NCBI RefSeq assembly: GCF_009914755.1
Contig: NC_060925.1
Length of the DNA stretch: 64,000 nt
Source: the human T2T-CHM13v2.0 reference genome, Homo sapiens
Strand: one strand, 5' to 3'
The position numbers and the translations under genes are program-made. The notes beneath the pieces are model-generated. The model searched no databases and was not told the origin of the DNA. It saw only the letters and a list, made by a program, of their open reading frames with translations. This document shows, piece by piece, positions 42,617 to 45,600 of this stretch (its first letter is position 1; every line of letters begins with the position of its first letter).

Positions 42617-45600
42617 GGAGGAGGGGCCAAGGTGGCCGAATAGGAACAGCTCCGGTCTGCAGCTCCCAGTGAGGCCAACGCAGAAGGTGAGTGATTTTTG
42701 CATTTCCAACTGAGGTACCCAATTCATCTCACTGGGACTGGTTAGGCAGTGGTTGCATCCTATGGTGGGAGAGCAGAAGCAGGGTGGTAAGTGCAAGGAG
42801 CCTGGGGGACCTCCTTCCCACAGCCAAGGGAAGCCATGAGGGACTGTGCTACCTGGCCCAGATACTATGTTCTTCCCATGTTTTTTTGCAATCTGCAGAT
42901 CAGGAGATTCCCTCGTGTGCCTACACCACCAGGGCCCTGGGTTTCAAGCACAAAACTGGGCAGCTGTTTGGGCAGACACTGAGCTAGCTGCAGGAGTTTT
43001 TTTCATACCCCAGTGGCACCAGTGAGACAGAAACCATTCAATCCCTCGGAAAGAGGGCTGAAGCCAGGGAGCCAAGTTGTCTCGCTCAGTAGGTTCCACT
43101 CCTGTGGAGCCCAGCAAGCTAAGAACCACTGACTTGAAATTCTCACTGCCAGCACAGCAGTCTGAAGTTGACCTGGGATAATCAAGCTTGGATGGAGAGA
43201 GGTGTCCACCATTACTGAGGCTTTAGTAGGCTGTTTTCCCCTGACACTGCTAAGGAGGCTAGAAGATGTGGACTGGGTGAAATATACCACAGCATGGCAA
43301 AGTGGTTGTGGCCAGACTGCTTCTCTAGGTTCCTCCTCACTGGGCAGGGCGTCTTTGAAGGAACGGTAACAGCCCCAGTCAGGGGCTTACAGAAAAAACT
43401 ACCATCTCCCCGGGACAGAGACCCTGGGGGAAGGGGTGGCTATAGGCACAGCTTCAGCAGATTTAATCTCTCCTGCCTACTGGCTCTGAAGAGAGCAACT
43501 TATTCTGACAAGAGGAATTCTCCCGGCACAGTGCACCAGCTCTGCTGAGGGACAGACTACCTCCTCAAGTGGGCCCCTGATGTCCGTGACTCCTGACTGG
43601 GAGAGACCTCCCAACAGGGGTCGACAGACACCTCACACAGGAGAACTCCAGCTGGTATCTGGCAGGCACCCCTTTGGGATGAAGCTTCCAGAAGAAGGAG
43701 GAGGCAGCAATCTTTGCTCTTCTGCAGCCTCTGCTGATGATACCCAGGTGAACAGGATCTTGAGTGGACCTCCAGCAAACTGCAGCAGACCTGCCAAAGA
43801 GAGGCCTGACTGTTAGAAGGAAAACTAACAAACAGCAAGCAGCAGCATCAACATCAACAACAACAACAACAAAAAAAACCCCACACAAAAACCCCATCCA
43901 TAGGTCATCAACCTCAAAGATCAAAGGTAGCTAAATCCTTGAAGATGAGGAAAAACCAGTGCGAAAACGCTGAAAATTACGAAAACCAGAATGCCTCTTC
44001 TCCTCCAAATGATCTCAACTCCTCTCCAGCAAGGGAATCCCACCCCCAAATCAACAGAATATTATTCTTCTCAGCACCACATAGTACTAATTCTAAAATC
44101 AACCACATAATTGGAAGTAAAACACTCCTTGGCAAATGAAAACTGAACAGAGAATAAGATTGACGAATTGACAGAAGTAGGCTTCGGAAGGTGGGTAATA
44201 ACAAACTCCTCTGAGGTAAGAGAGCATGTTCTAACTCAATGCAGGAAAGCTAAGAACCTTGATAAAAGTTACAGGAACTACTAACTAGAATAACCAGTTT
44301 AGAGAGAAACACAAATGACTTGATGGAGTTGAAAAGCACAGCACAAGAACTTCATGAAGTGTACACAAGTATCAATAGCTGAATCAATCAAGCGGAAGAA
44401 AGGATATCAAGATTGAAGATCAACTTACCGAAATAAAGCATGAAGACAAGATTTGAGAAAAAAATAATACAAAGGAATGAACAAAGCCTCCAAGAAATAT
44501 GGGACCATGTGAAAAGACCAAACTTATGAATGATTGTGTACCTGAAAGTGATGAGGAGAATGGAACCAAGTTGGAAAACACACTTCGGGATATTATCCAG
44601 GAGAACTTCCCCAACCTAGCAAGATGGGCCAACATTCAAATTCAGGAAATACAAAGAACACCACTAAGATACTCCTCAAGAAGAGCAACCCTAGGACACA
44701 TAATCGTCAGATTCTCCAAGGTTGAAACAAAGAAAAAAATGTTAAGGGCAGTCAGACAGAAAGGTCAGGTTACCTACAAAGAGAAGCCCATAAGACTAGC
44801 AGCGGATCTCTCTGCAGAAACCCTACAAACCAGAAGAGAGTGGGGGCTAATATTCAACATTCTTTTTTTTTTTTTTTTTTTTTTTTGAGACAGAGTCTCA
44901 CTCTGTTGCCCAGGTTGGAGTGCAGTGGTGCCATTTCGGCTCACTGCAACGTCTGCCTCCCAGGTTCATGCCATTCTCCTGCCTTAGCCTCTTGAGTAGC
45001 TGGGACTACAGGAACTTGCCACCACGTCCGCCTAATTTATTTGTATTTTTAGTAGAGACGGGGTTTCACTGCTTTAGCCAGGATGGTCTCGATCTCCTGA
45101 CCTCGTGATCTGCCCGCCTCCGCCTCTTGAAGTGCTGGGATTACAGGCTTGAGCCACCACGTTCAGCATAACATTCTTATAGAGAAGACTTTTCAACCCA
45201 GAATTTTATATCAAGTCAAACTAAGCTGCATAAGTGAAGGAGAAATAAAATCCTTTCCAGACAAGCAAATGCTGAGGGATTTTGTCACCACCAGGCCTGC
45301 CTTATAAGAGCTCCTGAAGGAAGCACTAAATATAAAAAGGAAAAACTGGTCCCAGCCACTGCAAAAACACACCAAATATAAAGGTTAATGACACTATGAA
45401 GAAACTGCATCAACTAACATGCAAAATAAACAGCTAGGATCATGATGACAGAATCAAATTCACACATAACAATATTAACCTTAAATGTAAATGGGCTAAA
45501 TGCCCCAATTAAAAGACACAGACTGGCAAAGATGAAGAGTCAAGACCCATCAGAATGCTGTATTCAGGAGACACACATAGGTTTTTTGGTCTCTTTTGCA

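What the first reader, a model, noticed from the sequence alone, without database searches (positions are those of the whole stretch)
44038..44142. A ~100-bp piece of this L1's own ORF2 endonuclease region copied into its ORF1
Seen: 44045-44142 matches 46021-46118 of the same element at 96/98 nt. The ORF track shows the same peptide FHLPRSVLLPIMWLILELVL at both 43977..44204 and 45947..46192. ORF1 sequence resumes at aaaactg, with aaaa microhomology at the junction, and there is no TSD or polyA. Both copies share spellings that differ from the L1 consensus as I remember it (gaatattattcttc, atagtactaattc, ctccttggcaaatgaaaa). Inference: the donor was this very copy, ~2 kb downstream, used long after it inserted. 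This fits a cis-templated insertion during break repair (polymerase theta-mediated end joining, synthesis-dependent strand annealing or replication template switching) rather than retrotransposition. The ~2% divergence makes it much younger than the L1 itself.
Basis: partly seen in the sequence, partly recalled or inferred. Interest (0 to 1): 0.7.

Follow-up and report, generated by a model that had tools for sequence, protein, structure and literature searches.

The report
Self-copied patch inside a dead L1
A dead human jumping gene (an old LINE-1 copy) carries a 101-base patch copied from its own sequence 2 kb further along, likely laid down while a DNA break was being repaired long after the element inserted; it is a clean single example of a known kind of repair scar.

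Summary
In detail: 44045-44142 matches 46021-46118 at 96/98 nt. Against 29 paralogous L1s, 101 nt (44038-44138) were inserted into ORF1, one target base was lost, the right junction has 4 nt of microhomology, the left has 6-7 imperfectly templated bases, and there is no TSD or poly(A). The donor is this locus: a 38-nt probe with the private spellings hits only insert and donor genome-wide, and the best other copy among 54 aligned differs by 6 substitutions plus a gap. Insert and donor share about 7 derived changes and differ by 2-3, all on the donor side; about 13 would be expected had the copy been made when the L1 inserted (P about 2e-4). The event falls in roughly the last 12-23% of the element's life (wide interval). 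Best reading: microhomology-primed copying of nearby DNA at a break, then end joining (0.68). Canonical Pol theta fits poorly (too long, too far). Copying from the element's own RNA is not excluded (0.15). Ape orthologues could not be checked. A new member of a known class (templated insertion); low interest.

The parts
44038..44138 (+). Inserted 101 nt in ORF1; 44045-44138 is an exact-length copy of the donor, 44038-44044 imperfectly templated or scrambled junction bases
   Evidence: Paralogue alignments break at query 333-339 and resume at 440 in 39 of 39 other loci scored (two start earlier, at 425 and 437); empty-site tally
44139..44142 (+). 4-nt microhomology (A-run) shared by target ORF1 and donor end; the target base before it (C in 27 of 29 paralogues) is lost
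   Evidence: 4 nt or more arises in 2.6% of random position pairs in this element
46020..46118 (+). Donor segment, in the 3' part of the ORF2 endonuclease domain of the same L1
   Evidence: 96/98 identity; the frame just upstream (45841-46083) hits Exo_endo_phos_2 at E 0.0019, below the curated cut-off; only other hit of the 38-nt probe
42617..49518 (+). Host: full-length, dead primate L1 (L1PA8-like, label recalled, no Dfam here), about 6.7% from its paralogue majority
   Evidence: ORF1 Pfam PF02994 E 2e-47, RT PF00078 E 5e-10; ORFs broken into pieces; 208 substitutions in 3097 coding-flank sites
42586..42595 (+). 5' copy of the host L1's 10-nt target-site duplication (3' copy 49519-49528); 21 extra nt lie between it and the L1 start
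43945..44139 (+). ORF1 start now reads 31 ORF1 codons into the insert and stops: 64-aa frame, no Pfam hit; a by-product, no function implied
44865..45169 (-). Alu (AluY-like, label recalled) inserted in the 3' end of ORF1 between target and donor, with a 9-nt TSD (44856-44864 / 45170-45178)
45573..45596 (+). Second, probably independent scar: 24 nt replace 10 nt; 45569-45581 repeats 45602-45614 exactly (flank-templated, Pol theta-like)
   Evidence: not seen in 53 of 53 paralogue segments printed

Best explanation
The 101-nt insert in ORF1 is a copy of this same L1's endonuclease region 2 kb downstream, made long after the L1 inserted, and it likely arose when a broken DNA end annealed to that region through 4 bases of microhomology, copied about 100 bases and was then joined to the other end. 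Shown: the donor is this locus; the junction anatomy (4-nt microhomology right, 6-7 untidy bases left, 1 nt lost, no TSD, no poly(A)); the copy postdates most of the element's private mutations. Inferred: a break at 44037/44139; resection or local unwinding over about 2 kb; the right-hand end (bottom strand ending in four T) primed on the donor's A-run at 46115-46118 and was extended leftwards; release and end joining to the left end, with slippage or a short second template giving 44038-44044. This is synthesis-dependent (SDSA / MMBIR-like) templated insertion on a DNA template. Whether the template was the same chromatid, the sister or the homologue cannot be told.
For: Only insert and donor match the 38-nt private-spelling probe within 3 mismatches genome-wide, reversed control 0. 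Best of 54 other aligned copies: 6 substitutions + 1 gap, against 2 + 0 for the donor. About 7 shared derived changes (6 substitutions, one of them CpG-like, and a 1-nt deletion), 2-3 donor-only, 0 insert-only; expected differences if copied at insertion time 13, observed 2, P 2e-4 (3e-3 at 5% divergence). No other locus spans either junction among 40 scored per search or carries the insert among 39. In human cells, insertions at an induced break have a median of 120 bp, a third of donors lie within 2 kb of a cut site, and 59% have microhomology at one end and a blunt other end (bioRxiv 10.1101/2022.09.30.509517, passages and section 7). A 98-bp, 96%-identical locally templated stretch was read as SDSA at a human non-classical L1 locus (PMC1920257, passage).
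Against: No enzyme can be read from one scar. The microhomology is four A at the right junction, which is what reverse transcription primed on sense RNA would also leave; only 12% of chance microhomologies of 4 nt or more in this element begin with four A. In the Indel-seq study the 0-2 kb donors are near any cut site, not only the acceptor, so the parallel is loose. The extended likeness right of the junction is not special (21% of random pairs score as well). All 2-3 differences lie on the donor side (chance 0.125-0.25 for that side, my arithmetic). DNA searches scored only 40 of 189-7112 candidates each. No ape or monkey orthologue was available.
Confidence: 0.68

Rival explanations
1. RNA-templated in cis: a nick or break leaving a bottom-strand end with four T primed reverse transcription internally on this element's own sense transcript (L1 RT supplied in trans, or a host polymerase), giving a 101-nt 5'-truncated cDNA patch.
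For: Polarity fits: sense orientation, microhomology at the right junction, four T at the primer end, which is the most efficient L1 RT primer end, and resected ends are expected to pair at internal sites of L1 RNA (PMC4014453, passages). The bottom strand at the junction reads four T then G, one base from the L1 endonuclease consensus. Class 2 TSIPs are argued to come from RNA (PMC5110952, parts 1-2). The 5' UTR is full length.
Against: The patch landed 2 kb from its own template; a free RNA would do so about once in 500,000 (6 kb of 3.1 Gb, my arithmetic), so a transcript held at the locus is needed. The ORFs are broken. No TSD. The nick site is off-consensus and such sites are common here (59 pyrimidine-AAAA sites in 6467 nt). 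Transcription of this copy is untested.
Confidence: 0.15
2. Canonical polymerase theta-mediated end joining with a flank-templated insertion.
For: 4-nt microhomology, 1-nt loss and an untidy second junction; TMEJ signatures occur in human germline indels and resection reaches about 2 kb (PMC7615360, passages).
Against: Pol theta templated insertions are 3-30 bp, templates typically within 30 bp, single synthesis tracts rarely over 10 bp; distal templates under 0.1% of repair (PMC7165422, passages). Here one tract of 94-101 nt comes from 1976 nt away.
Confidence: 0.07
3. Capture of a loose DNA fragment (from the sister chromatid, a flap or a replication by-product of this locus) by end joining, without synthesis on the donor.
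For: The donor is intact, which a sister-derived fragment allows; short microhomology and 1-nt loss suit end joining.
Against: Needs two more cuts near the break; gives no reason for same orientation; the Indel-seq study argues for synthesis rather than cut-and-paste.
Confidence: 0.05
4. Made during the original retrotransposition (RT template jump) or inherited from a source element, and later homogenised with the donor by gene conversion.
For: Template switches and short internal duplications occur during TPRT (bioRxiv 10.1101/2024.08.27.596794 and PMC11702581, passages).
Against: Those duplications go with 5' inversions (median 22 bp); this L1 is colinear and full length. Without conversion P is 2e-4; conversion would have to cover the whole 98 nt between short non-homologous flanks. 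No sibling with the junctions or the spellings. The insert stops ORF1 at codon 65, so a carrier could not be an autonomous source.
Confidence: 0.04
5. Assembly artefact.
For: None beyond the repeat context.
Against: A chimeric join would copy the donor exactly; the insert holds the paralogue-majority base at both sites where the donor has mutated and has its own junction bases. No N in the window.
Confidence: 0.01

Closest known systems
Templated insertions at double-strand breaks in human cells (Indel-seq, bioRxiv 10.1101/2022.09.30.509517; passages and section 7 read)
   Same: About 100-120 bp, donor within 2 kb of a break, donor intact, microhomology at one junction only
   Different: Those are induced in cultured cells; this is a fixed germline fossil inside an old repeat, dated by private mutations
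Class 2 templated sequence insertion polymorphisms (PMC5110952; parts 1-2 of 4 read)
   Same: No TSD, no poly(A); microdeletion, microhomology and extra bases at the junctions
   Different: TSIP donors are distant and the insertions are polymorphic; here the donor is 2 kb away and polymorphism is untested
MMBIR-type templated insertions, germline MMB-TIs (PMC8421209; passages and section 10 part 1 read)
   Same: Microhomology-primed copy of a nearby template that returns to the origin; possible second short template
   Different: The search there was for inverted templates within 100 bp; this is direct and 2 kb away
Non-classical (endonuclease-independent) L1 insertions (PMC1920257; passages read)
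   Same: An internal L1 fragment without TSD or poly(A), with target deletion and microhomology
   Different: Those are fragments of then-active L1s at unrelated sites; this comes from the host copy itself
Pol theta templated insertions, TINS (PMC7165422; passages read)
   Same: Microhomology and direct-repeat templating
   Different: Size (3-30 bp) and template distance (about 30 bp) are far smaller; the second scar at 45573-45596 fits them better

Membership tests
Templated insertion at a DNA break (synthesis-dependent) | Insert copied from an identifiable donor that stays intact | tested here: met
Templated insertion at a DNA break (synthesis-dependent) | Microhomology at one or both junctions, small target loss, extra bases | tested here: met
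   4 nt right, 1 nt lost, 6-7 untidy nt left
Templated insertion at a DNA break (synthesis-dependent) | DNA rather than RNA template; dependence on resection and strand invasion | not testable with these tools
   one intronless scar; no genetics
Class 2 TSIP | No TSD, no poly(A) | tested here: met
   longest flank match 4 nt; sequence
Class 2 TSIP | Donor in a distant genomic region | tested here: not met
   donor 1976 nt away
Class 2 TSIP | Polymorphic among humans | not testable with these tools
   one genome only; 2-3 differences suggest it is old and fixed (inference)
Pol theta TINS | 3-30 bp, template typically within 30 bp of the break | tested here: not met
   101 nt, 1976 nt
Classical TPRT insertion | TSD, 3' poly(A), consensus endonuclease site | tested here: not met
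   no TSD or poly(A); bottom strand four T then G, consensus has A
Endonuclease-independent or internally primed L1 reverse transcription | Internal L1 fragment, sense polarity, primer-end pairing at the 3' junction | tested here: inconclusive
   compatible, but equally expected for half of DNA-templated events
Source-element or insertion-time duplication | Copies diverged by twice the element's age, or siblings share the junctions | tested here: not met
   2 observed vs 13 expected; 0 of 39 paralogues
L1PA8 subfamily (host) | Best match to the subfamily consensus | not testable with these tools
   no Dfam or RepeatMasker library; label recalled, 6.7% divergence is in keeping

The most novel reading that the evidence does not exclude
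This is a germline fossil of RNA-templated repair in cis: a long-dead L1's own nascent transcript, primed internally by a four-T end at an endonuclease-like nick, patched a break in the gene it came from. Old repeats' private mutations would then act as barcodes for counting and dating such events genome-wide.
Probability: 0.15. Interest if true: 0.6.

Novelty: new member of a known kind. Interest (0 to 1): 0.22.

Why it matters
As it stands it is one neutral scar in a dead repeat, 38 kb from the nearest annotated lncRNA, with no likely function. Its value is as a method seed: because an old L1 has private mutations, both donor and date of a templated insertion can be read off, which short-read variant screens that drop repeats cannot do. 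A census over full-length old L1s would test whether germline templated insertions use DNA or RNA, by orientation, donor side and primer-end sequence.

Tried and rejected
A closer donor elsewhere: G000:C2:204180239 matches the last 38 nt perfectly, but over the 98 nt has 9 substitutions and a gap and lacks the 5' spellings. Extended homology right of the junction: not beyond chance, 21%. A second template for the left junction bases: a 7-nt match at 45907-45913 followed by the donor's paralogue-type C-run would spell the junction exactly, but a random 7-mer is found in that 170 nt 3% of the time before allowing for my choice of start and length; slippage in two C-runs explains it as well; unresolved. 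One complex event with the scar at 45573-45596: non-microsatellite, non-mobile-element insertions of 10 nt or more number about 10 of 22 events in 124,767 aligned paralogue bases (my classification; the script missed both scars of the window itself, so this is a lower bound), so a second one within 2 kb is expected about 15% of the time. A functional ORF1-EN fusion peptide: 64 aa, no Pfam hit, frame is chance. Background: 0 near-identical non-tandem internal duplications of 25 nt or more in 57 paralogous loci, 187 kb, so such events are uncommon, but the sample is small. Ape and monkey orthologues are not held. Earlier findings were not open. Abyzov 2015 (template sites 2-6 kb from breakpoints, recalled) and Khan 2006 (subfamily ages, recalled) are not held; PMC4937565, PMC9069542 and PMC11707537 (passages) added nothing decisive.

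Full report
Observation. The window holds a full-length primate L1 on the + strand at 42617-49518 with a 10-nt TSD; ORF1 and RT fragments are confirmed by Pfam and both ORFs are broken. 44045-44142, inside the 5' part of ORF1, repeats 46021-46118 of the ORF2 endonuclease region at 96 of 98 nt, same strand, 1976 nt apart. It is the only such pair in the 64-kb self-comparison.

Anatomy. A search of the whole genome with the ORF1 region scored 40 of 7112 candidates; all 39 other loci align in two pieces that skip the insert. In the 29 loci fetched, the empty site has a pyrimidine (C 27, T 2) directly before a 4-A run. In the window that base is gone, 101 nt (44038-44138) stand in its place, and the A-run (44139-44142) belongs equally to target and donor. 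Microhomology of 4 nt or more arises in 2.6% of random position pairs in this element. The first 6-7 inserted bases do not match the donor exactly: they read either as the donor's paralogue-type sequence with two C-runs each one base longer, or as a 7-nt piece of 45907-45913; this is unresolved. There is no TSD (longest flank match 4 nt) and no poly(A).

Donor. The best genome-wide hit of the insert is the element's own ORF2 at 98%, the next 92-94% (40 of 1339 candidates scored). A 38-nt probe carrying the private spellings finds exactly two places within 3 mismatches, insert and donor, and none for the reversed control; since it allows no gaps it tests chiefly for the shared 1-nt deletion. 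Of 58 other loci tested, 54 aligned, the closest with 6 substitutions and a gap. One locus that shares the last 38 nt differs by 9 substitutions and a gap overall. No other locus spans either junction among the 40 scored in each search (of 319 and 189 candidates).

Timing. Against paralogue columns, insert and donor share a 1-nt deletion and six substitutions (46039, 46061, 46065, 46077, 46106, 46107; 46077 is CpG-like and common among the loci picked for likeness to the insert); 46115 lies in the microhomology and is not counted. The donor alone changed at 46047 and 46056, perhaps 46020; the insert shows no change of its own. The element differs from the paralogue majority at 208 of 3097 coding-flank sites, 6.7%. 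A copy made at insertion time should differ by about 13; 2 has P 2e-4, or 3e-3 if the true age is only 5%. The share of the element's life since the event is 0.125-0.23 across six ways of counting, with 95% limits from 0.014 to 0.61. With an L1PA8-like age of 25-40 Myr (PMC5554003 passages; the label and the upper figure are recalled) the point estimate is about 3-9 Myr, in the great-ape period, loosely. No primate orthologue is held, so this is untested.

Mechanism. Shown: local donor, late date, junction anatomy. Inferred: a break in ORF1; the right-hand end, ending in four T on the bottom strand, annealed at the donor's A-run, copied about 100 nt leftwards, released and was joined to the left end. 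This matches templated insertions at induced breaks in human cells: median 120 bp, a third of donors within 2 kb of a cut, 59% with one microhomology end and one blunt end (bioRxiv 10.1101/2022.09.30.509517; passages and section 7). I give DNA-templated synthesis 0.68. Canonical Pol theta insertions are much shorter and closer (PMC7165422, passages): 0.07. The same polarity is what reverse transcription on sense RNA would leave, four T is the best L1 RT primer end (PMC4014453, passages), and only 12% of chance microhomologies of 4 nt or more here start with four A; but the patch landed beside its own template, so the RNA would have to be held at the locus, the nick site is off-consensus and the ORFs are dead: 0.15. 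Fragment capture 0.05, insertion-time origin with later conversion 0.04, artefact 0.01. That the copy came from this locus after the L1 inserted I put at about 0.95.

Consequence. ORF1 now runs 31 codons into the insert and stops after 64, with no Pfam match. The element was already decaying; no function is implied.

Relation to known work. It works like, and on the testable features is, a templated insertion at a DNA break. It is not a class 2 TSIP in the strict sense (donor not distant, polymorphism untested; PMC5110952 parts 1-2 of 4), not a Pol theta TINS, and not a classical TPRT product. A 98-bp, 96%-identical locally templated stretch at a human L1 locus was already read as SDSA (PMC1920257, passage), and germline templated insertions number about 100 per person in one survey (PMC8421209, section 10 part 1). 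One search for post-insertion internal duplications in L1s listed five papers, none on this by title or abstract start; two were opened for passages and deal with insertion-time events. I did not search for the locus by coordinates, subscription journals are mostly absent, and no supplements were read, so absence from print is not established.

Verdict. Real, correctly read in its essentials, a new member of a known kind. Interest 0.22; the RNA-in-cis reading (0.15) would merit about 0.6 and is testable by a census of old L1s.

Noticed in passing
window 45573-45596: Second repair scar in the same L1: 24 nt replace 10 nt, starting with a copy of the right flank (45569-45581 = 45602-45614) and going on with a T-rich stretch; fits Pol theta flank-templated insertion; absent from 53 paralogue segments.
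   Followed up: partly
window 42596-42616: 21 extra nt between the host L1's 5' TSD copy and the start of the L1; could be a 5' transduction or junction filler.
   Followed up: no
window 44865-45169: Antisense Alu with a 9-nt TSD inside ORF1's 3' end; whether it predates the templated insertion (donor distance 1976 or about 1660 nt) is unknown.
   Followed up: partly
L029 (G000:C4:84872754): This L1 paralogue switches to unrelated-looking sequence right at the point matching the donor's 5' end; it looks like an inverted L1 3' part (twin-priming type junction, my reading), and the coincidence is probably due to how the hit was selected.
   Followed up: no
L018:2085 and L022:2414: Nested insertions of 809 and 320 nt that look like 3' pieces of other L1s inside older L1 copies; an Alu in L058:606.
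   Followed up: no
L035:3075: 24-nt tandem duplication in the same endonuclease segment that served as donor here.
   Followed up: no
L023:277, L026:423: 28-nt and 22-nt non-tandem insertions in L1 paralogues that may be short templated patches.
   Followed up: no
window 24028-26147, 53141-56322, 61297-62680: Three more truncated L1 pieces in the window, 74-86% identical to the host L1; 53141-56322 has a 5' inversion with its breakpoint at 54959/54960.
   Followed up: no
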